DNA from: Proteromonas lacertae
Taxonomy: Eukaryota
Reading direction: 5' to 3'
DNA: 52,841 bases
Assembly: GCA_002245135.1 (NCBI GenBank)
Contig: NGBS01000623.1
Location: 1-52,841, forward strand
Made by a program: the position numbers and the translations under genes. The notes beneath the pieces are model-generated. The model saw nothing but the letters and a program-made list of their open reading frames with translations, made no database searches and was not told the DNA's origin. Numbering within the stretch: the stretch's first letter is position 1; each line of letters opens with the position of its first letter. Shown here in pieces: positions 6,922 to 46,595 of the stretch.

Positions 6922-6954
<33 letters not shown>

Positions 6955-8208: not shown

Positions 8209-11200
8209 CTATTCGATTTGGAATCCAAAGTTACCATAAGCCAAAGCACTTCTAATCCTGCTATTCATCTCCTCATACGATCTATACATCGGTAGATCTA
8301 GTTGGAAAAAACAAGTATGTGATTTAGGTAAGAGATTTGGATTATCTGCCCTTGTAATCCTGTATTTTCTACTCCATACTTTAGTGTTGGGTATTCTGCT
8401 TCTTCCCCATACGAATACTATCCACTGACTTCTTAATTCATTAGTTAATTCTTCCATCACCCTCCAATACCATCTAATAACTTGATCACTTTCTTTATAA
8501 TTCACATAAATAGTGTTTTGTTTTAGTAAATCAATATCAATAATATCAACACCACAAGTGATATATTCCAACTCATCTCCATTGAAAATGTATAATGATT
8601 CTTCAGGTAGAACTTCCAATAATCCTTCTCTAATACATTTCACTTGAATATCAAATTCATGCAATCTCTTTTCAATCATTATATCACACATTTCTCTTCT
8701 ATTTTCTAATGTCAATGGAATACTACTTCCACCTTCTATTAATTCAATTGATTCACCTTTGAAGTTATTAATAACACACATCGCATCATCTCCAACTAAA
8801 TATGGGAAATTATCATCATCACAAGACTTTAATTCATTTATATAATTGACAATTGGATTATCAACTTCAATTAAATCATTCAATGTCACTTCTCTATTGG
8901 CTATTAACTTCCATATCATGTTAGATAACTGGAATGGCAATAAAAGTTGTAATCTAATTGAAACACCAATAATTCTTCCAATGAATTTAAATATATCCAA
9001 CATTTGAGGTGATGTTAATTGAGGATTTGGTACAAATTTATTGGCTAAAACTTTATTATTATCATTTCCATTATGATTACCATTTTCATCATCATCATCA
9101 TCATCATCTCCTTCTTCTGCACCATCGGAAATAAAACAAGGTAACATTATATTAATATTTGGATCAAATAAATTAGTAATACTTTGATGTAAACAATCTC
9201 TAAATAAACCACCAGCATCAACACCTTCTTCATTCATATATGTTACACCCATAAACCTTCCTTCCAGTCTTGTTTTTGGACTTTTTAGATATATTTGGTT
9301 AGGACAATCTTTTAGATTTAAATATAGCTGTATAAACATACCATGAGATGACAATGGATTATCAAACTTTTTACCATTTTCAATACCTGATGCAATATTA
9401 TCAATGTTAACATGTGTTGTTGCTTCATCTACTCTGGTACTTTCAATAAATTGATCTAAATAACATGATTTTCTATTCCTATCGATTAAATAGAAACTAT
9501 TAAAACCTATTTTAGATAATGCATTTGGATATTCTATTTTTAAATCAATATTATTAATGAAATTATTCCAATAACTATTTACTAATTTCAACAAAAACAA
9601 TCTAAAATCTACATCTTCAATGTTTATATCGTTAATGATTGGATATTTTTGTGATGTATTTTGATTGGATATATAATGATCTGTATTACCATTACTGTTA
9701 CTTGAATTTTCATTTATGTAATTAATCAACTCAATATCTGCTTTTTTAGGCCAATTATGTTGAGTTTCTAAATCTTCTAAAACTCTATCTTTTGAACTGA
9801 CTATAATATCATTCTTCACAAAATTACCATGTAAATGAAAAGTCATTATTATACCAAATTCATCTGATGGCTTATTGGAATTAGATTTAATAGAATATTT
9901 CACTGAATTTGCTGTGTATCTAATCTCTTTTAATTGCTTATTATTAATATCTAATTGATTCTTTGTTCCATTACAGTTAAATTCAAAATGAATAGCCCAA
10001 CCTTCAGGTAATCTACAACGATAATCAAAATAGATGAATATATTTGTTGTTCCATCAATTCCAATACCTCCTGTAAAATTATTATCTTTGATTGGATGTT
10101 CTGTTTGTATCATTCTCACACTATTCTTATGGTTTAACCATGAATATAAAAAGATTTGATTATCAATATATCCTTCATTAGTTATTCCTTTTACTAACAA
10201 TGGATAATATTCTACACATTTTTCTGGATTTTTTTCATATTCTAAATAGTTTGTCTTATTATAAGTAAAATTGAAATTATCTTTTGTTGGTTTTTCTTTA
10301 TTCAGTGGAATTAACATGTTCTTTAATCTTTTGTACTGGTAATGATTCTCTATTGCTAGTTTATAAGATTCATTCATATTCAAGTAAGTTAGATTATACA
10401 ATTCTCTTATTCTTTCTTCTTTAAACAATGGAGTTAGTTTATCACACCAAGCTGGCTTGATAAAGCAATGTGTTGATAATATCAATAATAATATCTTCAT
10501 AACATCCACATTTGGTTCATTTTCAATAGAATTAATCAAACAATTGAAGAATTCTTCATTTTCATTACAAGCTTGATAAATCTCTTCATTTGGTTGTAAT
10601 AACAAAGTTTCAATTATCCATAACGCCCATTTTCTATTGGATCTTTCTGGATCTAATATATCAGTATCATATATCCATAATGGTCTGTTTATTTTATACA
10701 CTCTCATCTTATATCCAAAAGATTTGATAGGAATTGGAACACCTGCTTGAGTATAATTTTGATCAAATAGAACCTTAAAATAAAACAGATTTGAGTTTAT
10801 TACTACTGATTCGAATAATTTGGTTGTTTTATTGAATAATTTCACTAACTCTTTACATTCTGCATCTCTGTAAATGCCAATTGTATGATCATCTTGTAAT
10901 TGTGACTCTCTATCAAATGTAATTAATAACTCATCAGCATCTTCTATGAATATTGATTCTACAGATAGTTGAGGTCTATATGGATGATTAGATTCTCTAA
11001 TAATTTCACTTCTATAATCTATTGAATATGTTGGTTTAAGATGCTTAATAGCATTCTTTAAGAATGTATTATATAACTGATTCTTATCTTTATTGTAACT
11101 GGATAACAAGAACACTTGTAAAGATTGTTTTTGTCTTTCTAATTCTGCTAATTCTACAATATTATTATTATTTGTAATATTATCATCCCTTTCATTGTTT

Positions 11201-14200
11201 TCAATTAATCTTCTAATCACCATCAAGGCATAAAGATTATATAACGATTGAGGTAATGATGTAGAATTTGTCTTAAACTTTGTTAATAACAACTTATAGA
11301 AATTATCACCAACTTTCAACATGACATTCATAATTACTTTTTGAGCTGCGAATCTTTGTAACTGCAAACAATAACCAATACATCTTGAAACTAATGTTGT
11401 TTTATTGTTATTAGTTTCACAATATTGTAATCTATTAAACTCACATTTTTGAATCCATTGAAAACCAGTCAATGGATTATAAAACTTCACAAACACAAAT
11501 CTATCACTTTCTTCTCTCATTTCTCTATCAATTACACCAATTCGATTATTACCATCACCAGTAAATCTTACAAATAATCCTCTTTTAATCTGTCTTTTCT
11601 CCATATTGTAATATTCATTATTATTCAAATGAACTTCATCAGCACAAAGCATTTTATCAGATGGTGAGTTTATAGCTCGAAGATACCACGGTTGATAGTT
11701 TAAAGATCCATTACTATTGGATATCTCTCTTTTTGGCACAAAATTACTTCTCATTACGTTAGTAATTTGATATTTTTTTACATCTTTATTCACATCAACT
11801 GCAATACCTAATATTCTATTTGCAGCATCAAATTTGCTTTCACATTCTTTTAATTCTTCATAACATGCTCTTATAGAATATCCTGCTAGTGAATTGTGCA
11901 TTACAGTTGAATCCATTTTGAATGAATCTGGACATTCACTTTCATCTCCTTGTAAATTATATTCTGCTTTAATATTTGATAATTCACAGATTCTAGAATG
12001 TTTTTCATTCACATATTTTTCTATTCTATCTTCACTTACACTTGGTATATAAGAAGGTATATATTCCATATCACATGTATAATCTAATGATTTACCTGTT
12101 GCAATAGCAAATGCTTTTTTCATAATTGTATTTGAAGCTAATTTATTAGCAATTTCCATATTATTTGTCTGAACAGAAAAGAATCTGAATAATTGGTATT
12201 TCAATGATGATAATATGAATAAATGTTCAGGTGAATTTCTTATTTTTGCTTCATTCTCTTCTATTGCCGATTTTAATGCATCTCTTACTTCATCGCTATT
12301 TATTCCTAATAAAATATCAGTTACAATAGGAGGTTGAATTTTATCTAATGGAATACAGTTATTACTATTATAATGATGTATTTCTTCATTAAATGATTCG
12401 TTAAATATAATTCCAATATCATTCAAAAGTGGATCATATGATACAACTGTTCCTATTTGATTGGTTGGTTTATATAATACTTTTCCACTTGCTCTTATAA
12501 TTTCAATACTACTTCCTAATACTGATAAAACACCAAAACAAATTAACACTTCTTTTGTAGATGATTTTACATTGCTAATATAACTACTAAGTTGATTATC
12601 TAAATCACTTAACAACACTTTAAACTTGTCAGATATTATATCATTCCAATATTTATTACTAGTTAATAGCTTTCGAATAAAATCAATCAATTCAGATACG
12701 ATAATTTGTGTATTATATCCATAACCATTTGGATAAGTTATTCCTCTTTCATCTTCATCGTTGAACTTTTCTATGTTATAAGTTTCACCTATTAACTGTA
12801 GAAATGCTCTTAATAACTCAGAAATATCAAAATTAATAGTTATATTTTGGAATATATTAGATAAGAATCGAATTAAAGAGATTTTCAATTGTGGATATCC
12901 ATTTATTATAGCCTCTAATATAAACTTAAAATTATTGCTTAAAAATGTATTTTGTACCTTTGAATCACAGATTATATTAATAAACGTAATAGCATCAATC
13001 AAATGTGATTCAACTTGCAAAGAATTTCTTAAAGAAGGATTATGAATCTGTAAATAGGTAGAAATCCAGTTTTGTATATAATCATCAATTCTTTCACTTT
13101 CTTCACTTACAGTAATTGTTTTTATTATATCATGAGATAATTCATCTGGAATTCTATCATATATCACATTTCTAACATCTTTATTATCTTTATCATTATT
13201 ATTATTACTAATATTGATTAGTTGTCTCTTTCTATGCTTTATATGTTCATTATGAGATATAAACTGAGTTAATAATTCCAAGTGGAAATAATGACAGTAT
13301 TTTGATATTATTAAGTTGTTATACTTATGAGGTGATGATGGTTTAAATAAGAATGGCAATATTTCATATTCTTTCCTATTCCTTAACTCTTTCTTCATTA
13401 TCAAATAACACTCAGCATAATGCATAATAAAAGTTTGATTGTCATTAAATTCATCTAAATTATTGGTTATATAGTCTTTCAGACATTTTTGATTTAATAA
13501 CAACTTTCTTACACTTTCAATAGAAATTGTATTATCAGAAATCAATTCAACTAATTGTTTTGAAGTTGGTAAAGATTCTAGATTCCAGTTTTCAAGAATA
13601 TCACAATAATCTATTTCTTTGTTTTGATCCATACATATCATTTCATAATCAACTAATTTATTGAAGAATCCAATTTTAAATATCATTTCTAAATCAGATT
13701 TCTTATAATCTAAACTCAAAGTGTATAAAATAGCATAACTTAAACTATTACACGAAGTAATATTCTTATTCAATAATCCATATAAATCAATAAAGAAATC
13801 ATAAAATATTTGTTTCAATTCCCATATATCTTTTATACCAATTCCATTAATACCATTATCATATGAATATTTAAAATAGAACAAATTATCACTTGTTACA
13901 TTTGAATTACAACTTCTAAATGCACTTTTTATGTTATGCAATAAATCACACTGGCAAATCTTAGATTTGATATTACTTAGCATGTACAATATCTTCTTTA
14001 AACTATCAATTCTATTTCTACATATTTTCATTCTATTTTCTTGGATATTCTTCAAACTGTTCAACCTGTCTTCATCTTTAACAGTTGATAAGAAATCAAT
14101 CAACAAATCATTAATATTAACAGTTTCTTTTTCTACTGGTAATTCATTCAATTTGAAATTATCATCATTTTCTTCATAATGTTGTAAAAACTGGTTCAAT

Positions 14201-17200
14201 ACTTTAACATTTATATTTCTTATACTATTAGAAATAAGAATTCTATTTGATCTTGGAGTAGGAACAGCTTCTGGAGCTTCAACATCTCTTACAATAATAT
14301 CTTTGATAGGCTCATTCTTATTTCTGAATGACAATATATACTTCAATTCATTCTCTACATTCTTGTAATATTTGTCTTTCAATGAATCAATATCTTCTTC
14401 ACTTGCATTATTTCTCAAGTTGTTTATTGTTGTTAAAATTTTCTTTCTAAAGTGAGACATATCTAAACCTATTGCTTCACATATTTGTAATTGTTCTGGT
14501 GTGAGTTTATCTTCAATTTTGTCTTTATTTTCTGTTACTATGGCTATGATATCTTTCAATAATTGTAGATTATTAGTTTGTTTAAATAGAATTATTAAAT
14601 AGTGCATTTCCAATGTTGCTGGTATTCTTCTATTCTTATTCAACAAGTCTCTTTCATATTTAGTAAAGAACCATCCACTTATAGTCTTTGCTATTTGATC
14701 TTCAGATGCTATTATATAGATATAAATGATAATTATATACTAAATTGTTTAGTTAAATCATTGATTTCTTTATTCTCAAAACCTTCTCCTTCTGATTCTT
14801 GACCATTTATACATATATCAGTTGATAATAACCATGATAAGTTGTATTTATCTTCTATTGAATATCCATGAATCATTTGTTTTAACATTTCACTTATTGT
14901 AGCGCAATATAATCTTTCAATGTTGTAATGTAATGGAGTATCTCTTAATATCTTTTGATCTATACAGAATTATATGAATATGAATATAATAAAAAAGTAT
15001 ATTTTACCTTTAACATAACAATTAAACTTCATTTTACCTTCAAATGCAACAGCTAATTGGCATTTATCACTTGTTAACTCTTCTCCTATGACTTTATCAG
15101 ATTCTGAGATAATTTCATTATTATATTCAACTGTTAATTTGAATGTTTTACTATTAATTGTTAACACAATGATAGATCCTGATGTAATGCAGAATGGTCT
15201 AACAAAATACTTCTTATCTTTTAAATATATAAATTCACCTTTATTATTAGTATATATCTCACAATTCTTAATACCTTTAGCTGGATCAGATTTTGTCAAG
15301 CCAAATGAAAAGCTTGATGTATTATCTTCAGATGAAATAATATGAAAGATAATTTTCAATTCAACATCATGAAAAACAGTTGAAGATAATAACCTTTGCT
15401 TAAATGCATTACTAATCACTGGATAAACAGAAGGACCAATTCTCTTCTCCAATTCTGATTCTTCTATTCCATCTAATTCAAAATATGGTTGAATATTGAA
15501 CGACTTTTGATTTCTTGGAAATATATATAAAGTACAAAGTGTATAGTTAATTAAGAACTTATTGAATCCTTCAATACTATTATCTTCAGATATATCTGTC
15601 ACTAAATCTATCAAATCTGTTCTATAATGAATATCATCGATTCTATTAGTAATTTTATATGGATCATTACTCTTATATATTTCAGTCGAATAAATGAAAT
15701 ATGTTCTATTTGCACGTAGAATTAGAGGATATAATAAACCTTCAGAAGCAAAACCCAAACTATCAATTTGTGATTTACTATTCACAACAACTGAAGATAA
15801 TATTTCTTTTGTGCTTTGGTCAATTAAACGAATAACATGTGGTGAATGTAATTGTCTCAAATTATCTCTTAAACTAACAGCTCTTCCCAACGAATATAAT
15901 ACTAAATCCACTTTTGGTTTAAAGAAATAACCCATATTGCATGTTTTATTATCAATTGAACCATCTTCTAATGATAATAATGAACTGGTTGGTGGAGAAA
16001 TAAAGTCTCTTTGTATCCAATCGTTATCTATTATATTGTTCATTATTATATCATTATTATCATATTCAGAATCAAGTATATGGCAATATTTCTCATGTTC
16101 TATACATAATTCTATGATTGGTTGATTAATAGATTCAATAATGCTTTGATTGTATAAATTATTTTTAATAAATGATATAAATTCAATCACAAATTCACCA
16201 ATTGGAGATGAATAATAATTAGCTTTTGTATAATCCATTAATTCTTTTTCTTTTTTAGTTTCTTCCATACATTTTAGAATATATTCTTTTATTGCTATTT
16301 TTGTATAGTTTTCTATATCAACATACTTCTTTTCAGTGTCTTTAGAAATAATGGCAGTTAAATACTGTTCTTGATATTTAATAATGAAATTACTGAGTAT
16401 TCTATACTGATTATTTATATTTTTATCTTTCTTCTTTATTGAATCAATATATAACCCAATTGATTTAAAAAATAGTAATTTAAATAAGGCTATTTCTATT
16501 GGATATATTTCACCATTATCATCATTACATAAATAATATATCATTACTGGAGATTCGCTGAATCTTTCTAAAAGAATAAAGAATATTTTATCATTATCTT
16601 TTAACTTTAGGAAATAACTAATCCTTTCCTCAACTGTAGTAAATAACAATGAATAACCTGATACGATTGTTGATGTTAATTGTTTAATCAAATCTTCATG
16701 ATCTGGGTTAATAACATCATATAAAGAGATTATATTCTTTGTCAAATTCTCGAACTTTCCCATTAATTGTAATGGATCTGCCATTTTCCACAATTGATTA
16801 TCTTTTGGACTTAATCCATCTAATATAAACTGTTTAAAATTCATTTGCATTAAGTATAAAACATGATACAAATCTGTTTCGTGAAGTTTTAAATCTTTTT
16901 TACATTCATCAATTAGTGTATTAAATATTGAAACAGTTTTATTGGATAATTCATACCAAATTGGTATTTGACTAATACTTTTACTTGAATATGGAATAGT
17001 CTCATAAAATTCTATTATCTCTTTCAATAATTCAAATATTACATTCATAAATTCAGAAGTATTATTTATTGCTCTTTCTACATACAACTTATCATATTCT
17101 TCTTTATTTAAAAAACAAATATTATGCCAAGCAATACAACATCTATTAACATCATTTCTTGAATTAATAACAAAACTAATCTCACACATATTCTCTATTT

Positions 17201-19375
17201 TAATATCAAATTCATATTTTGGATTATGAACATCTATCGGTTTTTCTCCATAAACTAATTGATTTGTACCATCACTATCTCTTGCATATATTTTAATAAA
17301 TATAGAATTATCACGTATAATGTCATCTTTATCTTTATCTGTCATAGCAACATAGCCATGACAGTAATACTTTAATCTACAAGGCACAGAGAGTGAATAA
17401 TCATTTCTACCTTCAATATTATATCCATAAGCATCATAGTTAATATTACCTTTGAATTTCACTACATCTGTTGAATAATCATTATTAAAATTAACATTTG
17501 GCATTGCTATTAATAATTTACTATCTCTAGTCTCAGTGAAAGATAATAAACTAACTTTTGAATTACCATTAAACAACACAATTGGATAAATATTGTTTCC
17601 TTTTGATAAACTGAAAAATGGAACATATAAATCATTATTAATACTTATATATAATGCATGAGATGTTTCAACATACAATAAACTAATTACATCATTTTCA
17701 ATCATTGGTTTAACATAATCATATTCTAAACATCTACCATTAAACACTCTATTTCCTTTAGTTGAATATAAATAGATCATTCCACATTCTTCTATATTCA
17801 CTCCTTCTATATATGTTTTCTTTGATATACCAAAATATATTTCATCCTTTTCATCTAACTTTGTAATTAAAAACTTCCATTCATAAACAGCAGGATAAGA
17901 TAAACAATAATTCAAAATAGCGTAATTATATTTGATATTTGATTTATCACTACTTAAGTGAATTCCATCTTTTATTCTTATACCAGCTGTACAATAGGTT
18001 GGTTCAAATATTGTCCTTATAGGATTCTTCTTTATATATAAATTATGTTCTCTTTCATAAAATAATGATTGTTTTTTATCCTCCAAATACTTTACAAATG
18101 ATGAAGCTTCCTCTTTTATTTTAGAGAAATCAAATGATTTATTATCAATTTGTAACATTGTAGAAATATAACTGATTAATGGATAGAATAAATCGGTAAT
18201 TTTACATATTCTTAACATTAGAAACGTATATTTGTCTAATTTATCATGGTAATTGGTAGTCAATTTTTCAATATATGTTCTAAAAGTAGTTCTAGCATAA
18301 ACACTATCAGCTTCATCATAAAATAACACTTTCTTAATATTAATATAAAACGATCTACTCTTATCAGGACATTTGAATGTAAAAACAAGCGATTTTAGTT
18401 CATTAGGATCAATTGAAGATGGAACTAATAAGTTTATATCATTATCTATTTCATTATCTGTGATTAATGTCTCAGTAAGTTCAATTTCTCCTATTTTTGT
18501 CTTCATTATGATTGGATATGAATGACTCTCCAATCTTATCTATTATTTTATTATTAAATTAAATATATAATATACTCTAATATAACTCGGTAGTTCAAAA
18601 CATTCTAATTGACAATTACATATTTTCTCTCTATTTGGTTGTATTACTCCACTTTTCCATAATATACTCCTGTCTCCCATTTGTTTTTGTTCTTCATCAT
18701 CTTCTGGACTTAGTTTCAATGTACATGAATCACATTCTCTTCCTCTTTTCTCTTGAAATTGACATATTTCTCTATTCAACTTTTTAGAGGAATTTTGGAG
18801 TTTATCGTTTAATTTTTCTAGAAATTTGTCATAACTGGATGGTACTATATCTTCATTGCTTATCTATTAGAATAATAATGATTAATATACGAAACAAGGA
18901 ATAGTAAAAAAGAATTTCGGTTGTTCAGAATAAGAATGTAATAAACCATTATATATGTTTTGAAAATTACGAAATATTGACTTATTATTCTATAAAATAT
19001 AATATAAATCAAACAACTAGGAGATACTTCAATTAAATTCTCTAAAGGTATTGAATATGATGAAAATGGTGGACCACATATTTCCATTTGAGAATATAAA
19101 TTGAGTTCCATCAAGGAATGGTAAAAATCTGAACGATTTCCAAATCTAGAGTATTAAAGGAAGGAAAAATACTTCAACCTTTCTTCTGTTTTAGTTATGG
19201 TGCTTTCAAAATCTTGGTGATATAAAGAGCCCATCCAATACTCATATTCATATCCTGTAAAATCGTTTGTGTTTGAATAACAGTTATTATTCTGTGATTT
19301 ATTAATATTGTACAGACGTTTCATGGCATCACCTTTATATAGAAACCTAAGATCTTTATTGTCTGTAAATTCCAT
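8209..19375 (-). CDS. Giant HECT E3 ubiquitin ligase (~3,650 aa) with two SPRY-like domains and ESxHPY CUB-like modules; about 6 short introns
   Basis: C-terminal HECT (EEGVDAGGLFRD ... LPKSHTCFFQLDLPMY). ORFs 19154, 18860, 18543, 14970 and 8209 join in frame through GT-AG introns (e.g. 19146-19172, 18540-18575, 14960-15007). Confidence 0.9.
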
Positions 19376-24375: not shown

Positions 24376-24491
24376 ATTTTAATTTTTATTATGTGTATTT
24401 GTTAGTTTGTTGGTATTATAATTAGCATAATCATCTATAACAGAGGATGTATAAGATTTAAACAGAATATATTTCAAAATAGATTTGAAAA

Positions 24492-25490
24492 ATGATAAAA
24501 CATATTGAACACAATAGAGAGATAAACATAAATATATCAAATAACTCAGTTAACTCTTTATATAGCAAATATACAGAAAAGGAGAAGAGGAAACTTACAA
24601 AGACAGTTATGTTAGCTATTACATTTATTATATCATTTATAATTGCATTTTTCTTGTTACAAAATAATTTACAAACAAATGAAGTGATTGAAACCAAAGA
24701 AACCCATATTGAAGTATATCTTTTTATTTTCAACTATCATTGGAACAGTTATGTAAGTTATCCATATCTAAGAGATGTATACATCCCATATCTACAGAAA
24801 ACATTCAAAAATAAGTGTGAATTTGTGTTTTATGGTCCAAAAGAATCATCACAATACCCTATAAAAAGAAATGGCTTAGATGAAGGTGGCTATTATTCTT
24901 ATTATACCTTAGTTAAGGCATACAAAGACATAAATAAGCAATATGATGGATATTTCTTTCTCAATGATGATAGTTTTTTTGATCCAGTTTTATTTTATAA
25001 AAATGGTTTAAATTTAAATTATCCAATAGTGGAAGGGATGGGGATATTTCCAGCTAATTTTACAGAATGGTTGTGGCCTAATAGTCCAAATTACAGAGGA
25101 ATTACATTTCGACAAGCATATATAAATGTTAGAAATAATATTTGTAGTGAGAAAAACTCTATAGATAATCACAAATTTGAAAAATTGTGTGGTTTTAATG
25201 AAAATCAGAATTTTCATGGTTATGCAGATTTTTTCTACATCCCTAAGAGTTTAATTAAAGATTTTGTCTATTTGTATGATTTAGCTTATAAAGAAGGTAT
25301 GTTTTTAGAAATGGCAGTTAATTCATTCGCTTATAATTATGAATACCAAGAGTTGGGTTATAAGTGTTACTTTATACACGAATTAGGAAAATGTCCTCAT
25401 ATTCATCCAATTAAATATTCATATGAACAAAATAGACAAATTACAGCAAAATATATACAAAAGACTTTAGTTAGGTTGAACATTAGTTGA
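24492..25490 (+). CDS. Type II membrane glycosyltransferase-like protein resembling the STELLO C-terminal half; intronless
   Basis: N-terminal TM helix; FIFNY...FVFYGP...GYYSY...DGYFFLNDD...ADFFYIPK...FLEMAV. Confidence 0.65.
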   Translation: MIKHIEHNREININISNNSVNSLYSKYTEKEKRKLTKTVMLAITFIISFIIAFFLLQNNLQTNEVIETKETHIEVYLFIFNYHWNSYVSYPYLRDVYIPYLQKTFKNKCEFVFYGPKESSQYPIKRNGLDEGGYYSYYTLVKAYKDINKQYDGYFFLNDDSFFDPVLFYKNGLNLNYPIVEGMGIFPANFTEWLWPNSPNYRGITFRQAYINVRNNICSEKNSIDNHKFEKLCGFNENQNFHGYADFFYIPKSLIKDFVYLYDLAYKEGMFLEMAVNSFAYNYEYQELGYKCYFIHELGKCPHIHPIKYSYEQNRQITAKYIQKTLVRLNIS

Positions 25491-25671
25491 TGTAAGTGGA
25501 TTTTTTTGGAAAAATCAGTTATTTTACAAATAAGTTGTGTAAATAATTAGTTATTAATTTTAGTTATGTTGTTTAAGATTGTGTATTAGGAAGAAAAAGG
25601 TTTTAAAGAAATTGGTTAATGAAAATTTTCGTAAATTGAGAAATTAGTTTTTTTCTTTTTTGAAAATTAGA

Positions 25672-26932
25672 ATGTATTTTTACTTAATTTTAGGAGTTGT
25701 AAGTGTGTCATTATGCATTCTCTTTTATATGTTTTCTGGAGATGAATCAGCTACAGTTAGCAATCCTCAAGCTACAATAATGAACAAATTACTACCAGCT
25801 GGTGTATCAGGATCATTATTCAAGCCATTAAACAGAACAATTGACAAAAATGGATTGCTCAATAGCTTAATATTAAACAAAGGAAAACATGAAATAATTC
25901 ATGAATCAACTAAATGGATAGTCACAACATCTATAAGATGTCCCAGCGATATAGAAGCATTGCTCCATGACAGTTATGAGAAATGGAAATTAGTAGTTGT
26001 TGCAGATAAGAAAACATGTTCAAGCTGGTCAGAGGAATTAAGCCCTAAACTTAAAAAGTTTAAAACAGTATTTCTTTCTGTAGAAAAACAACAAAATTTA
26101 TGGTACAACATAATGAAATACACGCCTTACAATTCATTTGCTAGAAAAAATATAGGTTACTTATACGCTATAGAAAGAGGTGCAAAATGTATATTAGATA
26201 TTGATGATGATAATATTTTGTTAAATAATGCAATCGATTTAGACTGTGATCAACCACCAAATTCAATAACAATAAATTCAAAGAATTTACCAACTGTCAA
26301 TCCTTATACACTTTTATGAAGGAATGATATGGCCTAGAGGATATCCGTTAGATTATATAAAGAAACAAAATAACTATACAGAAATCACTGATAATAATAA
26401 TCAACCAGGTGTTATTCAATATTTACAACATTTAGATCCAGATGTAGATGCAATATTTAGATTAAGTCAATTACCATTCAAACAATGGATTAACCGTCAA
26501 ACTTGCATAACAATTGATAGTGAAAATTATTCACCATTTAATGCACAATCTACATTAGTTTATCAATCATCATTTCCACTATTAATCCTACCAGCAAGTG
26601 TTCATGGAAGAGTAGCTGATATTTGGAGATCATATATCACTGAGAAAATAATGTCAAAATGTCATTATTCAATGAAATTCTGCAATCCTGTAGTAAACCA
26701 TATGAGAAATGTTCATAATTATTTAGCTGATTTTCAAGCAGAAATACCATTGTATTTACAAAGTACTGTATTGGTTAATTATTTGCATGATTATGAATTG
26801 AAGTCTACAACTCCAACGGAATGTTTATTGGAATTGTATTATAATATGTATAGTCAAGGATATATTGAAGAAGGTGATTTGAAGCTAGTGAATGGATGGG
26901 TTACTGATTTACGTAATTTAGGTTTGGAATAG
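25672..26932 (+). CDS. STELLO/DUF288 glycosyltransferase-like protein; intronless, frame break at 26312-26315
   Basis: KWIVTTSI, LVVVADKKT, PYNSFARKNIGYLYAIERGA, DIDDDN, NPY../WPRGYPL, DPDVDAIFRL, PFNAQST, RVADIWRSY. Confidence 0.85.
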
Positions 26933-28220: not shown

Positions 28221-30175
28221 TTAATACATTTTGTTTAATTCTTCTAATAATTTGTTTATTTCTTCTTTCTCTTTATCATCATTTCTTTGACTATCTACAT
28301 ATTTTAATGATTTTTCTAAATATTCTTTACTCTTTTCTTTTTCTTTCTATTTATATCATATATCAATTATCAAATAATACAATTTGAAGATAATATTTTC
28401 CCATTACTTTATTATACCAATATTTTGTATTATCATTACATAATTCTTCTTTTATTTCATTCAAATATGAAATTGTCTTTTCTTTTTCTCCTATTTCCAA
28501 ATAACTTGCTGCTATATTTGACATTACTAGATATTTATCTTTTTCATCTTCTAAATAACCTAATGCAGTATTACAATATTCCAATGCTTTTTCATATTCT
28601 TTCTATTAACAGAAATATTATCATGATTATACTAAATTATAATAACAACAACCTAATCCATTATTATTCCATCCTTTTCTTTCATTTGATGATGAATATT
28701 CTAATGCTGTTTTAAAATATGGAATTGCTGACTCATATTCTTTCTATTTCTATTATATTCATCATTAATACTAAATAAAAACAACACCAACCAATCATTC
28801 TATTATTGCATTCTTTTTCTTCATCTTTTGATGAATATTCTAATGATGTTTTAAAATATGGAATTGCTGACTCATATTCTTTCTATTTCATTTTATTATC
28901 ATAATTATACTAAATTATAATAACAACAACCTAATCCATTATTATTCCATCCTTTTCTTTCATTTGATGATGAATATTCTAATGATGTTTTAAAGTATGG
29001 AATTGCTGACTCATATTCTTTCTATTTCATTTTATTATCATAATTATACTAAATTATAATAACAACAACCTAATCCATTATTATTGCATTCTTTTTCTTC
29101 ATCTTTTGATGAATATTCTAATGATGTTTTAAAGTATGGAATTGCTGACTCATATTCTTTCTATTTCATTTTATTATCATAATTATACTAAATTATAATA
29201 ACACCAACCAATCATTCTATTGTTGTATTCTTTTTCTTCATCTTTTGATGAATATTCTAATGATGTTTTAAAATATGGAATTGCTTTCTCATATTCTTTC
29301 TATTTCATTTTATTATCATAATTATACTAAATCATAATAACAACAACCTAATCCATTATTATTCCATCCTATTCTTTCATTTGATGATGAATATTCTAAT
29401 GATGTTTTAAAGTATGGAATTGCTTCTTCATAATGTTTCTAATATATATAATCACTATATTTATACTGATTCATTATAACAATTTCCTATCATTCTATTA
29501 TTCTCTTCTTTTTCTTCATTTGATGATGAATATTCCAAAGCAGTCTTAAAATACATAATTCCATCATTATAATGTTTCTATTCAGTATCATAAATATATA
29601 AATATATATACCATTTCATAGTAACAAAGTCCAATATTTCCATTATTTATTGATTTTTCTACATCTGATGAATTAAATAATAAAGCAGCCTTGTAATATT
29701 GAATTGCTTCTCTATATTCTTTCTAATTTATATTATATTCATCATTAATACTAATTCTTCATAACACCAACCGATCTTTCTATTACTACATTCTTTATTT
29801 TCATTTGATGTAGGGTATTCTAAAGCACTTTTATAATATGGAATTGCTGATTCAAATTCTCTCTAATTTATATTATATTCATCATTAATACTAATTCTTC
29901 ATAACACCAACCGATCTTTATATTATTACATTCTTTATTTTCATTTGATGTAGGGTATTCTAAAGCACTTTTATAATATGCAATTGCTAACTCATATTCT
30001 TTCTATTCATCATAAATTCTATTTTATATACATTATCATAATAATAATCTCCTATCATTTTATATACTTTATAAGTCTCTTCACTACTACTTTTGCTTTT
30101 CATCTCATTCAATATTTCGTTCAACTTGACCACATCTTTATTCTTCAATAGTTCCTTTATTTCATCTACATTCAT
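28221..30175 (-). CDS. TPR-repeat protein with ten consecutive 111-nt (37-aa) phase-0 exons
   Basis: Each exon encodes e.g. KEYESAIPYFKTSLEYSSSNERKGWNNNGLGCCYYNL, separated by ~28-34-nt GT-AG introns. The whole gene splices in frame to EEINKLLEELNKMY*. Confidence 0.85.
28603..30002 (-). repeat. Tandem array of ~139-140-nt exon+intron units
   Basis: Near-identical units with period 139 at ~28630-29440 (intron GTATAATTATGATAATAAAATGAAATAG repeated exactly), and a near-identical pair with period 140 at 29723-29990. Confidence 0.95.
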
Positions 30176-30577
30176 ATCAGTTCTAATGTTTTTTTGAATT
30201 TTTTATGTAATTAATTCAAGCCAAGCCAATATTTTTCTGTTTTTTTATGTAAATGCATGATTAATATGTAAATAACACTTATATAGAGTATATTGTCCTT
30301 TTTCATAAATATTCTGTAGATGTTAATAGTAATTGTGAGTAAATAGTGAGAGTGTAGTGAAGTAGAGTGTTAATAGAAAGAATAGAATATCTATGAAATA
30401 TTTATAAGTGACACCAAATAATCTATATATAATTATATTGATTGATAAGAGAAATAAACTACTTTTGTGTTTTAAAGAAGAATTTCTATCAATTTATCTG
30501 TATTTATTATGTTATATTATTATACTGGTAAAGAAAAACACAAATATTATCAAAATATTAGAAAATCAATCAGTTAT

Positions 30578-37415: not shown

Positions 37416-39536
37416 TTACTTTAGATGAGAAACTGATAATAATTCAAGTGAAGTGTTTTGGTATAATAATTCAGCATATGAATATAATGGAGAAGGTAAA
37501 TCTTTAACAAGCAAAACAGGAGATGAATCATTATGACTTATCCAAAATTCTCTTTTATTCATATCAATAATCACTTCATAAATTGAACCATTTCCATGAT
37601 TATTGAAATTTGGATTTGAATTTACAACTCTTCCAATATGACAATTATCAGTAATATCTTGACTTAAACAATCATATTCCCAATAATTACATGTTGTTGA
37701 TTGATTATAAATACTATAACCAGAATATGTATTATCAGTTGATAATCCTAACATCATACCATCATATTCACTTCTATTTTGATGATATTTATATTTGATA
37801 TGATAAACTCCATCTTCCATTTTCAGATTCAAATAACAATGATTAGAACCATAATATGTAATTGTTATTATTTTTCCATTATTTGAGATTGATATACTAT
37901 AACTTTTGTTTAATTTTGTGAATCTTCCCAACAAAAATTCTAATGAAATTTTAAATTTCTTTTCATTTAGAATATTCTTGCAACTTATTTCATATTCTCT
38001 CTTTTTGATTTCTTTGTTCATTTTTCCATGAATTATTCCACTTTCTTTATTTATCATTAAACCATCAACTAATGAAGGATTGATTGAAAAGTCACATCGA
38101 TTTCCATCAAATAATGGAATTATTGACATTTCTTCATTTAATCCAAATGAATATTCTGATTGAGGATATGAAAATGATGTGATTTCTTTTGTTTTTAATT
38201 CTTCCAATAATTCTTTATCTTTCATTATTACAATCATTTCTTCTTCTTCTAAACTCAGTTTATTCTCTTTTATATATTCTATTAATAATTCTTTAGATTT
38301 GGAATTTAGATAATTATCTTCATTCAATATTCTAAAAAGAATCTCTTTTCCACATACTTCTTCTATTATTGAAACACTCTTTTTATCATCAACAAACAAA
38401 CATAAACATTTCATTGTTCGATTTCTTTTATTCTCATTATATTCCATACATAATCTTTCCAATAGATTTCTCTTTTCGATATTTGAGATATATTCTATTT
38501 AAATATATTTTTAGTATTTATACTTTCCATTTTCATATTTTTATATTTCATTATCATCAATACTATTTCCATCATTTTTATATTATTCATTTCTAATATA
38601 CACATTATTTCATCATTCAATTCTTCTTCTTTCATTTTATCCAATATTCTTCTTTCTTCTTCATTAAAGTCATCTTCTTCATTATCTTCATTGTAATTGT
38701 TGATTATTACATTTTGAATTCTCTCATCTTTTATTAAATATAATTCTATATGATTTTTACATTCATTTTTCTTTAATTCTATTTTCATTTCTTTCAACAT
38801 TTCTTTATTCTCTTTTTCTATCTCTTTCTCTTTTATCTTTTCACCATCGACATCTTCTTCTATCAATTGTTTAAAATCATCTTGTATCTCTTTATTATCT
38901 TTCTTATTCTTTTGGAATTTATACCATTCTAATAATCGATTTAATAACCATAACTCATTCACTATTATCACATCTTTCATATTTAATATCTCTCTCAAAT
39001 TATTCATTTCTAATCTCAACAAATATTCATTCTTATATAAATATTTATATCCTCGCTTTTCTATTTCCATATTTTTCAATTCTTCTATCTCTCTCAAATA
39101 TCCACCAAATACATTACAGATATGAATTAATTTCATTAATACTTCATCATCTATATTATTCTTCACAAATTCATAACAATCATTTATTATCTCTTTTTCA
39201 CTATAACATAAACAAAACATCAACACTTCACACACACTCTCTTTACAGATTATCAGTTCACCACCACTGTAGTATTTCTCCATCTCATAATAGCCAATTT
39301 CTTCGATTTCTTCATATAACTCTAAAACTCCAACAAACTCACGATCTAACAACAGTTTCTTTAGAGTTTCATTCCCATTTACTAAAATTGACTTGATTGA
39401 CATTATTCGATTATCTCTAATCTTCACTTCTATATCACCAAAACCACTTTCGACCAATTTTCGACATAATCTATCATAAAAATAAATATAAAATATACCC
39501 CTCTTCTCTTATGCTTTTATTAACTTTTCTTATCAT
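37416..39536 (-). CDS. BTB/BACK-like + He_PIG-type Ig + SPRY-like protein, paralog of 5803-7969
   Basis: Same domain order (KYYSGGEL; FSINPSLVDGLMINKESGIIHG; NHCYLNLKMEDGVYHIK; LYSYAEL). The first two introns have the same position and phase as in the paralog. Confidence 0.75.
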
Positions 39537-41589: not shown

Positions 41590-44500
41590 ATGTCATTAGA
41601 AAGAGTGAATTTACCAATAAAAATGTCCAATGACAAGCATAATCCTTTAATCAGAGGTGGTATGAGACAATCTCGTCCTTTAGAATCAAAAATGTCTCCT
41701 AGAACATCAATAAGAAAATCAAGAACATCAAGAACATCATTCAATAATAGTAAGACTGAAAGCCAGTTTGGTCAACCTCCACAACAGCAAGGAACAAATA
41801 TTTTGAATCTACATACTACTACCAGTTTTAGATTGCCTGCTAGAACATCGTATATATTTTATATTAAATTATAATTTCATATTTATTGAAATAGAAGTAA
41901 TTATGTAAATTCTTCAGACAGATCCACAAAAAGTGTATGTTCACAATCAGCAGAAGAAGATGATTTAGCTCCACAAACACCCGTTGATTTGCAACAAGTT
42001 GATTTAAAAAGAAAACCATTAATGGGTATTAGTCCATCAAGACCTTCCACATCAGCAATACCGAGTGTAATACAACACAATCGAAAACCACTAGAAACAA
42101 GAGAATTGATATCCAAAGCATTAAAAAGTCATTTTCTGTTTTCATTCTTAGATAAAGAGATGGAAGATTCAATTATTGATTCAATGGACTGTTTATTAGT
42201 TTCTAAAGGTACAAATATCATCATAGAAGGCAATATGGGTGATAACTGTTATGTGATAGAATCAGGCGAATTTTGCATTTATGAAAAATCCAAAGGCAAT
42301 GCTATGGTAAATAAACTAGGTCCTGGTGAGTTATTTGGTGAATTAGCGTTATTATATAATTGTCCATGTTCAGCCACTGTCCAGAGCTCTATGCCAAGCA
42401 AAGTTTGGGTATTAGACCGTGCTGCATTCAGAGCAATTGTTGCACAACTCTCCGAAAAAGAATCAACAAATTATCAAAATTACTTGAAGAATTTGAATTG
42501 TTTGAAATCACTGACTGAAGAGCAATTAGCCTCAGTAGCAGAAGTAGTCAGAGTGGAAGAATACAAAACAGATGACATTTTAGTCTCACCAGATACAAAG
42601 AACTTCACTATCTATATAATCCAGAAAGGTACAGCCAAATACAAAGACAGAAATGGTAAAGAAACTGAACTCAAAGAAGAAGATAGTTTTGGTGAAGAAA
42701 CATTACAACATAAAAATCCCACTTATACAGTAAGAGCAACGAGTAACTTAACATGCATCACTGTACATTACAACGATTTTGTTCGAGTAGTCGGTGATAT
42801 CGGTGATGTGATCGATCATAATAATCGATTAAAAGCGTTATTATCTATACCATTGTTACAATATTTGAGTTATCAGGAATTAGAACAATTAGATGAAGCT
42901 TTTGTATTAGAAACTTATACTTCAGGTAGTTATATAATTCGACAAGGAGAAATTGGTGATAAGTTTTATATTTTACATGGCGGAATATGTGACGTTACTA
43001 AAACTGTCGACAAAGATGGACAACCAATCGAACAATTCATTCGAAAGATTGAAGATGAAGGTAGTTACTTTGGAGAATTAGCTTTATACTCCCAAGATAG
43101 AAGAACAGCTAATGTAATAGCAGTAACTACTGTAACATGTTATACATTAGATCGACAATCATTCATCAAACTGTTTGGTCCTTTGAAAGATATTATGGGT
43201 CAACATTCTGTAACTAGAACTCTCAGATCAGTTCCACTATTTAGATCACTTTCTAATACAGAAATTGAATCATTAGCACATGCTTTAAGACGAAGGAAAT
43301 ATTCCAAAGGTGAATATTTAATTGAAGAAGGTACACAAGGTAATGAGTTCTTTATAATAAGTGAAGGATGTGTAAATATAACGAAGAATACTCCAACTGG
43401 TCAAATTCCTATTAGTAAGTGTGGTAATGGTAGTTATTTAGGTGAAATTGCATTGGTAACGAATGATTTGAGAACTGCCAATGCCATTGCTGAGACTGAA
43501 GTGGATGTATTTGTATTGGGAGCGAAGGAGTTTAGCACATTGTTTGCACCAATATTAGTATTATATATATATTATTATTATTATTTATCTCTTATCTTTT
43601 TTTACCTCTTTTTTTACCTCTTTTTTTCCTCTTTTTTCCCTCTTTTTTTTCTATCAATTTACTTCTTCTTATTATTATTAACAATAGTCAAAACTTCAAG
43701 AAAGTGCATCTCAAAAACGTCAAGCCGATGATTTGAGAGAACAATCTCAAGTAAATGACAAAATGAAATCACTCACCTTAGATAAACTAGAAACAGTTGC
43801 CTTACTAGGAACTGGAGTATTAGGTCGAGTTACACTAGTAAAAAATCCACAATCAAATGATATTTATGCATTAAAAGCAATGCATAAATACACAATAGTT
43901 GACAAAAAACAAGAAATAGCTGTAGTAAATGAGAAGAATATATTATTATCTTTAGATCATCCATTTATATTGAAATTATATAGAACTTTCCAAGACAGTG
44001 AGAAAGTGTATATGTTGACGGAATATGCTCAAGGTGGTGAGCTATATGGTTTATTAAGAAGAACACCTAAGTATATATATATATATTATAATAATTATTA
44101 TTTTAAATTGTTTATTAGACATCGATTAAGGCCAATTAAAGCTCAATTCTATGCTGCTTCTGTCTTATCAATATTAGAATATATCCATGGTAAAAGAATA
44201 GTCCATCGTGATTTAAAACCAGAAAATATCTTAATTGATACTCAAGGTTATATCAAAATGATAGATTTTGGTTTTGCTAAAGAAATAAGAGATAAAACTT
44301 ATACATTATGCGGTACACCTGAATATTTAGCTCCAGAAGTATTAACAGGTAAAGGCTACAACAGATCGTGCGATATTTGGGCATTTGGCATATTAATCTA
44401 TGAAATGTTATGTGGTCATGCACCATTCAGAGCACAACAAGAAGATCGATTATTCCAAAAGATTACAGAAGGCGTACTAGAATTTCCACCAAAATTCTTC

Positions 44501-44770
44501 GATTTTGCAGCTAGAGATTTAATTCAAAAGTTATTGACAGTTGATGTGAACCGTCGAATGGGATGTTTAAGAAGAGGTGTTAGAGATATAAAAGATAATA
44601 TTTGGTTTAAAGATATTGACTGGAAAAGATTAATGAAGAAGAAATACGATGTGCCTTGGATTCCTCCAGTGAAAGATGAAGTAGATTATTCTAATTTTGG
44701 ATGTAATGATCCTGAAGAGGAAGTACCACATTATGAAGGATCAACTTCAAATTGGGATAGTGAATTTTAG
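41590..44770 (+). CDS. PKG: cGMP-dependent protein kinase-like: four cyclic-nucleotide-binding domains plus an AGC kinase; introns 41850-41894, 43558-43687, 44071-44118
   Basis: FGELAL motifs and RTA cassettes; HRDLKPEN, DFGFAK, TYTLCGTPEY; AGC tail ending WDSEF. Confidence 0.9.
43595..43652 (+). repeat. Pyrimidine minisatellite (~12-nt unit CTTTTTTTACCT, 4-5 degenerate copies) in a 130-nt PKG intron
   Basis: Directly visible tandem copies. Confidence 0.8.
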
Positions 44771-45023
44771 AAAGTATTTTATTGTTTAATCTAATGTAAT
44801 TTGTTATGATATTTGTTTGTTTTGGTAGATTGCTCAATGTTTGTCTATGGTAAAAAATAAAAATTATAAAAGAATGTAATATGTGGGACTTTTAAAGCGA
44901 TTTTTTCTAATTACGAATATATCATTCAACAAAAATCCCAAATTACAGAAAGGATTTGAATAATAATTATTTTTAATTATTAATTCATTATGTTTAAATC
45001 TTTTAGCAATTTGTTTATTTCTT

Positions 45024-46595
45024 CTAAGCACTTTTAAAGTATGGTAGTGCTTCTTTATATTCTTTCTACTTAATATTACAATGGTGAATAATACTAAAAT
45101 ATAATAACAATAAGCTAACCAATTATTATTACATGCTTTTTCTTCATTTGTTGATGAATATTCTAAGGCAATTTTAAAGTAAGGAATTGTTTCTCTATAT
45201 TCTTTCTATTTATTATTACAATGATTAACATACTGAATAGTAATAACATTTGCCTATCATTCTATTATTATATTCTTTATCTTCATTTCTTGATGAATAT
45301 TCTAATGCAATTTTATAATATATAATTGCTTCCATATAACGATGCTAATGAATAATTATTATATATATACTATATTGTAATAACAGTCTCCTATACCACA
45401 ATTATTTATTTCTTTTTCTTCATTTAATGTAGAAAATAATAACGATTTTTTACAATATTGAATTGATTTTTGATATTCATTCTACACTATATATCAATCT
45501 ATAAATACTAATTCAAAATAACAACATCCTAGCCGATTATAACAATATTTTTTATGATCATTTGTTAAAGCATATTCTAATCTATTTTCGTAATATGGAA
45601 TTGCTTCTCTGTATTCTTTCTATTTATTTCATAATATATAACAATATACATTTTCATAATAATAATCTCCTATTATCTTATTCATTTGACAGTTTTCTTT
45701 TTGTGAATTGTTTTCTCTCATTTCTACCATCATTTCATTCGCTTTTTCTTTTTCTTTATTCTTCAATAATTCAATAATAACATTAACTCTAATTCTGAAT
45801 ATTAATTCTTCTATTGTCATTCGATTATCTTTATTCACTGCTAATAATCTACATAATATATTATTGTATCTATAGTTTAGTTTATCATTATTTTCATATT
45901 TAAATTCTGTTATGGATTTTATTAAATCATAAGTTGAATTGGTTTTAAATGGAATTTCTTTTCTTAATAATCTATAATAGATTATTCCTATATTCCATAT
46001 ATCACTTGCAACATTCATTTCTTCATCTTTCAATATTTCTGGACTTAAATATATTATCTCATCCATATCTCTTTTTATATCATTTAATCTGTCTTTCAAT
46101 AACAAATATTTTAAATTATCAACTATTATTATATCTCCTTCTTCATTCAACAACATATTATTCAGTTTGATATTGTTATATATCATACCATTTTCTTCCA
46201 GTGTCTTTATCGCTTTTATCAATTTTAACATTATCTCATTGATTTCTATCTCTTTTAACTCTTTCTTAAACATTAACTCTTCTAAGTTACTCTCATATTT
46301 CTTCATTATCAATATCACATATTTTTCGGTAATTATGTATTTATCATATATCAATACATTGCTCACTCTCAAATTACTCGATTTCTCTAGTGATTCAACA
46401 AAACGATCCAGACACCTCAAATTCATTTTATCTCTGTTATATATCTTCACACATTTTATATCATTACTATTCTTTTCTTTAACTTCCAACAAAACACTTA
46501 AATCACTCTTCTTTATCACTCTTATCAACTATTTCATATTAAACAGCAGTAAAATATACAGAATATTCATCACTTATACTTTCAAATTCTTCCAT
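45024..46595 (-). CDS. Pseudokinase-TPR protein, truncated at the C-terminus by a deletion
   Basis: MEEFESISDEYS|LIRVIKK; kinase fold with YNN for HRD, DNL for DFG, YLSPE and SDIWNIG; four ~37-aa TPR exons; premature TAG at 45024. Confidence 0.8.

What the first reader, a model, noticed from the sequence alone, without database searches (positions are those of the whole stretch)
28221..30175. TPR gene diversifying by duplication and recombination of whole exon+intron cassettes
Seen: ten consecutive 111-nt phase-0 exons, one TPR each, with introns copied along with the exons. Two exon types alternate: A (SSSNERKGWNNNGLGCC) and B (SSKDEEKE[C/Y]NNRMIGWC). The unit at ~29050-29160 is a B/A chimera (SSKDEEKECNNNGLGCC). 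The intron at 28744-28771 has the 5' part of the 29723/29863 intron type and the 3' end (GAAATAG) of the other type, so exchange also occurs between non-adjacent units. Differences cluster in a few residues of one helix (NG/RM/RK/IK, CC/WC, YYN/YYD/CFY/YEE). Established: one-repeat-per-exon shuffling is described for Ectocarpus ROCO-LRR and NB-ARC-TPR candidate immune receptors. Inference: this is an independent variable-recognition system, and the phase-0 exons also allow in-frame exon skipping.
Basis: partly seen in the sequence, partly recalled or inferred. Interest (0 to 1): 0.85.

Follow-up and report, generated by a model that had tools for sequence, protein, structure and literature searches.

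The report
Recombining one-repeat-per-exon TPR binding array
A microbial eukaryote carries an intact gene built from ten same-sized mini-exons, each one binding-repeat long, whose copies have swapped short DNA patches and differ most at the predicted ligand-contacting residues, so it is likely a variable-specificity binding protein of a design already known from brown algae and fungi.

Summary
The array is real: an intact 533-aa gene (minus strand, 30175-28221) with ten 111-nt exons and twelve 28-34-nt phase-0 introns. The chimeric exon and chimeric intron are confirmed, and recombination is significant (p=1e-4).

Four corrections. Only six of ten units are A/B type. Each exon straddles two TPRs (helix B + next helix A). 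Exchange runs through sub-exon patches, not whole cassettes. Exon skipping is untested and unlikely with such short introns.

Variation concentrates at TPR groove positions 2, 5, 6, 9, 12 and 13 (dN/dS 1.0-1.4, against 0.5-0.6 on the outer surface and 0.15-0.17 in the core), but is not significantly above 1.

A paralogue at 46595-45024 fuses four such exons behind a predicted pseudokinase, apparently in the same order. Eight of ten short relatives from unnamed sequencing-run contigs show the same 37-residue unit with an apparent intron at the same place.

Verdict: a new variant of a known design (Ectocarpus TPR exons, fungal concerted-evolution repeats), with a pseudokinase or no signalling domain instead of NB-ARC. 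An immune or recognition role is plausible but not shown.

The parts
28221..30175 (-). Gene 1: intact TPR-array gene, 13 exons, 533 aa, no kinase domain
30032..30175 (-). Exon 1 (48 aa): helical linker/cap plus first helix A; 48% identical to the segment that follows the kinase domain in gene 2
29892..30002 (-). U1, type C exon; following intron 29891-29863 identical to the next one
29752..29862 (-). U2, type C exon, 7 of 111 nt different from U1 (recent tandem copy)
29612..29722 (-). U3, type D exon; groups with K2 of gene 2 (support 89/96)
29467..29577 (-). U4, type E exon; groups with K3 (96/92); likely donor lineage of the helix-A patch of B units
29328..29438 (-). U5, A-type exon whose first codons match U4
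29189..29299 (-). U6, B type: A-type scaffold with a U4/K3-like patch at exon nt 64-88
29050..29160 (-). U7, mosaic: U9-type patch (nt 55-75, at most 28-82) in a U8 background
28911..29021 (-). U8, A type
28772..28882 (-). U9, B type; differs from U8 at 6 of 6 groove and 6 of 31 other residues
28744..28771 (-). Mosaic intron i9: 21-nt prefix shared with i1/i2, 7-nt end shared with i5-i8
28633..28743 (-). U10, A type, 2 nt different from U8
28381..28602 (-). 222-nt exon (two repeat lengths, no intron between); predicted four-helix TPR-like fold, pLDDT 92.8
28221..28346 (-). Last exon: helix B, capping helix, stop
30215..30260 (-). Upstream element shared with gene 2 (15-nt core at 30253 and 46659, the only two matches in the window); likely promoter
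45024..46595 (-). Gene 2, paralogue: 12-aa exon, 879-nt exon (predicted pseudokinase + linker), four 111-nt exons K1-K4, short last exon; all six introns phase 0, 26-31 nt
45650..46528 (-). Kinase-fold domain (Pfam Pkinase 1.9e-23) with catalytic loop YNN for HRD, DNL for DFG, no GxGxxG; the same changes in 3 of 3 relatives
44980..45065 (-). Collapsed 3' end of gene 2: stop at 45026 after 13 codons; the family's C-terminal helix follows in another frame (deletion plus frameshift, or an assembly indel)

Best explanation
This is an intact TPR-array gene whose 139-nt exon+intron units have been tandemly duplicated and have exchanged short DNA patches, likely by unequal crossing-over and gene conversion, which varies the residues predicted to line the binding groove and would give the protein and its pseudokinase-fused paralogue changeable binding specificity. 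SHOWN in sequence: the gene structure; recent copies (2-7 nt apart); patch mosaics from non-adjacent units; identical introns and helix-B scaffolds flanking a divergent linker/helix-A block; 9 distinct groove signatures in 10 units; a paralogue with the same linker, upstream element and 3' end. INFERRED: the near-invariant stretch (end of helix A, intron, helix B; up to 97 nt identical) is the homology in which strand exchange starts and ends, so that the variable block of about 45 nt is what gets swapped. Ordinary germline or mitotic recombination does this, with no dedicated recombinase. Gene 1 lost the pseudokinase (or gene 2 gained it) and works as a stand-alone binder or adaptor. The TPR superhelix binds a changing set of ligands (foreign proteins or fast-evolving partners), with the pseudokinase as a non-catalytic switch or scaffold. 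The DNA-level mechanism is about 0.85-0.9 likely; selection for varied recognition about 0.5.
For: Structure. Recombination: near-site incompatibility 0.092 vs 0.24 overall, p=1e-4 for U1-U10, p=0.008 for U5-U10; U7 P=2.6e-4; B units carry a U4/K3-like patch. U5-U8 have 25 variable exon sites and 0 variable intron sites (P=0.0075 if uniform). Groove positions 2, 5, 6, 9, 12, 13 (defined from HOP co-crystals, PMC1261162): entropy 2.03 vs 0.94 bits, P=1e-4, 14 units; dN/dS 1.15-1.36 vs 0.52-0.62 outer/loop (p=4e-4 and 6e-3) vs 0.15-0.17 core. A vs B differ at 6 of 6 groove and 6 of 31 other residues, p=4e-4. In 17 units from 10 unnamed relatives, six of the seven most variable positions are the groove positions. 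The architecture recurs: 8 of 10 short relatives, 11 of 17 units, are followed directly by V (an apparent read-through GT), against 0 of 19 units in long TPR proteins. Paralogue and pseudokinase family.
Against: Groove dN/dS is not significantly above 1 in any of four fits (p 0.37-0.92), and those fits assume one tree although recombination is present. These positions are hypervariable in all TPRs, and young repeats generally evolve fast under relaxed purifying plus positive selection (abstract of PMC5120217). Among members of 7 relative clusters only 3 of 17 in-unit differences fall on the groove (2.8 expected), and unit order is unchanged. No incompatibility signal when the four gene-2 units are added (p=0.54), so exchange between these two genes is not shown. 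Gene 2 looks truncated. No ligand, expression or phenotype data.
Confidence: 0.55

Rival explanations
1. Ordinary repeat turnover: a TPR scaffold gene whose intron-bearing repeat was recently amplified and homogenised, with relaxed constraint on exposed helix-A residues and no selection for diverse recognition.
For: Groove dN/dS about 1, not above. Those positions vary in all TPRs. Fast horizontal repeat evolution is described as universal (abstract). Uniform exon size and phase follow from tandem duplication, and Tetrahymena and kelp LRR arrays do the same in phase 2. Relatives' alleles are not groove-enriched (3 of 17). Unit order appears conserved between paralogues.
Against: The groove evolves about twice as fast as other non-core sites. 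Introns and helix B are homogenised while A and B grooves stay fully different. All ten units keep frame and core (dN/dS 0.15-0.17).
Confidence: 0.33
2. The array is mainly a splicing device: in-frame skipping of 111-nt exons yields many TPR isoforms from one gene, as reported for brown algal genes.
For: All exons are symmetric phase 0. Splice variants are reported for brown algal ROCO genes, and for NB-TPR genes as cited in PMC11378527 (passages).
Against: Skipping one unit needs a 167-nt intron where all 18 introns of both genes are 26-34 nt. Skipping is widely associated with long flanking introns, though with named exceptions (PMC6142364 passages). Symmetry is a by-product of duplication.
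Confidence: 0.06
3. The chimeric units or the copy number are assembly or polishing artefacts.
For: Near-identical tandem units are a known source of error; gene 2 has a one-base frame break at its 3' end; no raw reads could be laid.
Against: The longest exact repeat in the gene is 97 nt, shorter than common reads. All ten units are distinct and in frame. The same unit and apparent intron position occur in independent unnamed contigs. B-type mosaics recur in two units with their own later changes.
Confidence: 0.04
4. A programmed, somatic rearrangement system (adaptive-immunity-like) shuffles the cassettes within a cell lineage.
For: Proposed for Ectocarpus (PMC3341825 passages); the scaffold-flanked variable block would suit it.
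Against: No silent donor exons, inverted exons, signal sequences or recombinase gene seen near the gene (tblastn finds units only in the two genes). PMC11378527 notes somatic recombinants have not been reported even in brown algae.
Confidence: 0.02

Closest known systems
Ectocarpus NB-ARC-TPR candidate receptors (Zambounis et al., PMC3341825)
   Same: One repeat length per exon, equal-sized frame-preserving exons, tandem paralogues, probable pseudogenes; probably also a stramenopile. The paper's TPR search motif runs from TPR position 15 to 14, which hints at the same register (not confirmed).
   Different: 126-nt (42-aa) exons vs 111-nt (37-aa); NB-ARC vs pseudokinase or nothing; long introns holding inactivated spare exons vs 26-34-nt introns without spares.
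Fungal NLRs with high internal conservation: Podospora het-d/het-e WD40 (PMC1805685) and HIC TPR NB-ARC genes (PMC13449251)
   Same: Concerted evolution of scaffolds, repeat exchange, diversity focused on a few interaction-surface residues. This is the closest match for how it works.
   Different: Those have NACHT or NB-ARC plus effector domains, demonstrated positive selection and allele polymorphism, and known allorecognition roles. Here each repeat carries an intron, and selection and function are unproven.
[quoted passage not shown]
   Same: Exon+intron unit amplified by unequal crossing-over; uniform length and phase; some fused to protein kinase domains.
   Different: LRR not TPR; phase 2; thousands of genes or tens of genes with RNA support, vs two genes seen in this window.
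Generic TPR domains (HOP TPR1/TPR2A, consensus CTPR proteins)
   Same: Consensus positions and helix pair; variable groove positions 2, 5, 6, 9, 12, 13.
   Different: 37-residue period (3-residue insertion between repeats); very recent near-identical copies.

Membership tests
TPR proteins | Repeated helix-pair with TPR consensus residues | tested here: met
   Single exons give weak Pfam TPR_1 hits (E 0.008-0.03, below the curated cut-off) at profile positions 15-33; the exon profile hits consensus TPR proteins at E 4e-14; the 74-aa exon folds as four helices, pLDDT 92.8, with TPR proteins among the top Foldseek rows but none at E<=0.001.
Ectocarpus-type NB-ARC-TPR | NB-ARC domain before the TPR array | tested here: not met
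   Gene 1 starts with a 48-aa helical exon; gene 2 has a kinase fold.
Ectocarpus-type NB-ARC-TPR | One repeat length per frame-preserving exon | tested here: met
   10 of 10 array exons are 111 nt, phase 0; Ectocarpus exons are 126 nt.
Ectocarpus-type NB-ARC-TPR | Inactivated spare TPR exons inside introns | tested here: not met
   Introns are 26-34 nt; tblastn finds units only in the two genes.
Ectocarpus-type NB-ARC-TPR | Alternative splicing of repeat exons | not testable with these tools
   No sequencing run was listed.
Fungal HIC repeat receptors (het-d/e, HIC TPR NLRs) | High internal conservation and repeat exchange within the gene | tested here: met
   Units 2-25 nt apart; identical introns; mosaics, p=1e-4.
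Fungal HIC repeat receptors (het-d/e, HIC TPR NLRs) | Repeat exchange between paralogues | tested here: inconclusive
   No shared identical unit and no incompatibility signal with gene 2; other paralogues are not available as DNA.
Fungal HIC repeat receptors (het-d/e, HIC TPR NLRs) | Positive selection at interaction-surface residues | tested here: inconclusive
   Groove dN/dS 0.96-1.37, above other sites, not significantly above 1.
Fungal HIC repeat receptors (het-d/e, HIC TPR NLRs) | Copy-number polymorphism among isolates | not testable with these tools
   No second copy of this locus was found.
Fungal HIC repeat receptors (het-d/e, HIC TPR NLRs) | STAND NTPase and effector domain | tested here: not met
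   Absent from both genes.
Pseudokinases (gene 2) | Kinase fold lacking the catalytic HRD aspartate and/or other canonical motifs | tested here: met
   Pfam Pkinase above cut-off; YNN for HRD and DNL for DFG in 4 of 4 family sequences; no GxGxxG in the 3 that include the N-lobe; strand-3 lysine kept. Motif names are recalled knowledge. Inactivity is predicted, not assayed.

The most novel reading that the evidence does not exclude
A lineage-wide family of pseudokinase-TPR receptors and kinase-less TPR decoys in a poorly sampled protist forms an innate recognition repertoire. Tiny, homogenised introns plus an invariant helix B serve as built-in recombination handles that swap the groove-lining helix A between repeats, under diversifying selection from viruses, endosymbionts or host proteins.
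Probability: 0.25. Interest if true: 0.75.

Novelty: new variant of a known kind. Interest (0 to 1): 0.48.

Why it matters
Repeat receptors that diversify by repeat exchange are described with NB-ARC, NACHT or ROCO signalling domains. A version tied to a pseudokinase, or to no signalling domain, in another protist lineage would be a further apparent convergence and a handle on how such protists recognise foreign proteins. The locus is also a clean test case: each 139-nt unit holds a near-neutral intron, a conserved scaffold and a six-residue variable surface, so conversion and selection can be separated with one long amplicon across isolates. If the neutral rival holds, it is an ordinary young TPR array.

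Tried and rejected
No whole genome is held for this window, so the family could not be collected genome-wide. No sequencing run, DNA or RNA, was listed; this is no evidence either way, and no reads were laid. Scans for related loci found none: JGI metagenomes with the kinase alignment (0 of 325 pattern matches) and the A/B exon alignment (0 of 355); viral contigs (0 of 38); prokaryote genomes (0 of 64). The word-indexed protein search with the exon profile gave 6 generic TPR proteins among 7993 candidates of 131-2000 aa. The kinase-exon model was unusable (pLDDT 42.9) and was not searched. The spliced 533-aa protein was not folded, so groove positions rest on sequence register, not on a model of the array. 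The ESM Atlas returned only generic kinases; a second query did not complete. A crude regular-expression survey of intron-like spans (53 of 97 at 20-39 nt) is not used as evidence. One search had two of 17 relative units one residue out of register; one search corrects this and is the one cited for those counts. Earlier scan notes held nothing on this genome or these sequences. Whether the Ectocarpus TPR intron sits at the same position could not be settled: the supplementary table has no sequences; a PDF of pictures, an HTML file and two .doc figures could not be read. Rejected: phase 0 as an adaptation (any phase is preserved by duplicating a unit with one intron; known arrays use phase 2); strict A/B alternation; membership in NB-ARC-TPR or NLR families (no NTPase). 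Literature searches listed no paper describing a pseudokinase-TPR family with 111-nt exons; the library lacks most subscription papers.

Full report
Setting. The window is AT-rich eukaryotic DNA (22-32% GC per 2 kb) with dense genes and very short introns. No whole genome is held. A search with the window's SmD3 exon gave two unnamed close relatives (95% and 90%) and then hits at about 60-70%; most of the best hits that name an organism are stramenopiles (oomycetes, a bicosoecid, a brown alga), with an amoebozoan among them. The organism is therefore probably a stramenopile without a named close relative in the collection. Introns near 30 nt and low GC are reported for Blastocystis lineages (PMC12129017, passages), but that placement is a guess and was not tested.

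The observation. A search for the best open spliced frame, free to choose any intron phase, returned for the minus strand 30175-28221 an exon of 144 nt, ten exons of exactly 111 nt (U1-U10), one of 222 nt and one of 126 nt. The twelve introns are GT..AG, 28-34 nt, all phase 0; the frame is open for 533 codons. The repeat period is 139 nt. Introns i1 and i2 are identical, and so are i5-i8. The order of types is C, C, D, E, A', B, B/A, A, B, A, so the A/B description covers 6 of 10 units. Each exon begins at TPR position 15 (Pfam TPR_1 positions 15-33, weak and below cut-off; consensus TPR proteins at E 4e-14 with the register fixed at both helices). An exon thus codes helix B, a three-residue insertion and helix A of the next repeat. 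The 222-nt exon folds as four helices at pLDDT 92.8; Foldseek's top rows include TPR proteins but none reaches E 0.001.

Recombination. Among 26 informative sites in U1-U10, nearby sites are less often incompatible than sites in general (0.092 vs 0.24, permutation p=1e-4; U5-U10 alone p=0.008). U7 has no private base: it follows U9 at seven contiguous sites (nt 55-75) and U8 at the other twelve, P=2.6e-4. B units are themselves mosaics, an A-type scaffold with a U4/K3-like block at about nt 64-88 (triplet scan at its floor, p=2.5e-4, 345 of 1092 triplets tested, uncorrected). Intron i9 shares 21 nt with i1/i2, seven and eight units away, while the exons beside them differ at 26-27 of 111 nt. 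All breakpoints fall inside exons or introns. Whole units were duplicated, but what is exchanged is a patch. In U5-U8 there are 25 variable exon sites and none in the introns (P=0.0075 if spread evenly). The longest exact repeat is 97 nt and covers the end of helix A, the intron and helix B. That stretch is the likely homology for strand exchange (inference), and its shortness makes misassembly unlikely.

Where the variation lies. PMC1261162 (passages) gives positions 2, 5, 6, 9, 12 and 13 as the ligand contacts in HOP co-crystals and notes that most of them are the most variable positions of TPRs in general. In the 14 units of the window these six have mean entropy 2.03 bits against 0.94 elsewhere (P=1e-4). 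A and B units (U8, U9) differ at 6 of 6 groove and 6 of 31 other residues; gene 1 has 9 distinct groove signatures in 10 units. A codon model with a shared synonymous rate gives dN/dS 0.96-1.37 for the groove against 0.26-0.40 for the rest (p 4e-5 to 2e-8), but never significantly above 1 (p 0.37-0.92; four data sets). With three classes the groove is 1.15-1.36, outer and loop sites 0.52-0.62, core 0.15-0.17 (groove vs outer p=4e-4 and 6e-3; my own site classes). These fits assume one tree. The result fits diversifying selection but cannot be told from loss of constraint.

The family. A second array lies at 45619-45095. It belongs to a gene starting at 46595: a 12-codon exon, an 879-nt exon with a kinase fold, four 111-nt exons and a collapsed end with a stop at 45026 and the family's last helix in another frame. 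It shares with gene 1 an upstream element found only at these two places, the helical linker (48% identical) and the 3' end. Its units pair with gene 1 in order: K2 with U3 (89/96) and K3 with U4 (96/92); K4 is nearest the A/B units and K1 falls beside U1/U2 in one unsupported tree. The paralogues therefore differ in copy number (4 vs 10 units), with no sign of reordering, and no exchange between them was detected (p=0.54). The kinase lacks the catalytic aspartate (YNN for HRD), has DNL for DFG and no glycine loop; three unnamed relatives at 58-60% identity share these changes, so it is a predicted pseudokinase family. One relative, P0009, ends in a stretch weakly like gene 1's first exon (E 0.009-0.06).

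Relatives elsewhere. The exon profile matched 296 proteins at E<=0.001; 150 were listed. Most are long generic TPR proteins. I picked ten short representatives; all come from Logan contigs and are unnamed. They look like gene fragments read through in-frame introns: 11 of 17 units, in 8 of 10 clusters, are followed directly by V, often with a spacer of 8-13 residues that ends in Q, against 0 of 19 units in ten long proteins. This is what a phase-0 GT..CAG intron after position 14 would give (inference; the DNA was not seen). In P0134 two successive spacers are nearly identical while the exons share 22 of 37 residues, the same pattern as i5-i8. Across these 17 units six of the seven most variable positions are the groove positions. 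Against my reading: among members of seven clusters only 3 of 17 in-unit differences are on the groove (2.8 expected), with unit order unchanged. Older family members look fixed, as the two-phase model of repeat evolution predicts (PMC5120217, abstract).

Mechanism. Most likely an intron-bearing TPR unit was amplified long ago in a pseudokinase-TPR gene family. In gene 1, which has no kinase, the C unit and above all the A unit expanded recently by unequal crossing-over, and short conversion tracts moved helix-A patches between units while homogenising introns and helix B. The product would be a superhelix with a constant backbone and a mixed groove. That this serves recognition of changing ligands is inferred from the groove bias and from analogy. 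Exon skipping is possible in frame but needs a 167-nt intron where all 18 introns of the two genes are 26-34 nt; skipping is widely linked to long flanking introns, with exceptions (PMC6142364, passages).

Comparison with what is known. Ectocarpus NB-ARC-TPR genes have 126-nt exons, spare inactivated exons in introns and an NB-ARC domain (PMC3341825, passages and section 16; supplementary table searched). Brown algal ROCO and Tetrahymena LRR arrays use phase 2 (PMC11378527 and PMC6564038, passages). Fungal het-d/e repeats combine concerted evolution with positive selection at four surface residues (PMC1805685, abstract), and repeat exchange is reported for TPR NLRs (PMC13449251, passages and section 11). 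The 2023 Plant Journal paper on NB-ARC-TPR splicing was seen only as a citation. This locus works most like the fungal case and is built like the algal one, but it is a member of neither, lacking the NTPase. Four searches listed no description of this family; PMC5608401 (passages) mentions TPRs only for the anaphase-promoting complex. Unchecked notes from this scan describe similar one-repeat-per-exon genes in other microbial eukaryotes, which suggests the layout is common.

Verdict. Observation largely right, interpretation partly right. A real, recently recombining TPR array with groove-focused variation in a pseudokinase-TPR family: a new variant of a known kind, interest 0.48.

Noticed in passing
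window 45024-46595 (-): Pseudokinase-TPR paralogue with four 111-nt exons and a collapsed, frame-broken 3' end; three unnamed relatives of its kinase share the non-canonical motifs.
   Followed up: yes
window 5803-7913 (-) and 37416-39508 (-): Two paralogous genes with weak BTB or BACK hits whose C-terminal parts are 36% identical over 214 aa; possibly another expanded adaptor family with a variable C-terminal domain.
   Followed up: partly
window 1117-2406 (-): Leucine-rich-repeat gene (Pfam LRR_14 6.7e-9, below cut-off), largely in one long exon.
   Followed up: no
window 8209-18863 (-): Very large gene with ORFs of 2176 and 1189 aa whose end resembles a HECT E3 ligase (by eye; not searched).
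   Followed up: no
window 24489-26932 (+): Two adjacent genes with N-terminal membrane anchors that look like glycosyltransferase-type proteins (by eye; no convincing Pfam hit).
   Followed up: no
window 41890-44770 (+): Gene resembling a cyclic-nucleotide-dependent kinase with all canonical motifs, convergent with the pseudokinase-TPR gene.
   Followed up: partly
proteins P0141, P0146, P0202 (unnamed Logan contigs); window 28381-28602: Some family units are joined without the intron, as in the window's 222-nt exon: intron loss, or never gained, at some repeat junctions.
   Followed up: partly
PMC3341825, methods: The Ectocarpus TPR search motif starts at TPR position 15 and ends at 14, the same register as these exons; whether the intron position is shared is unresolved.
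   Followed up: partly
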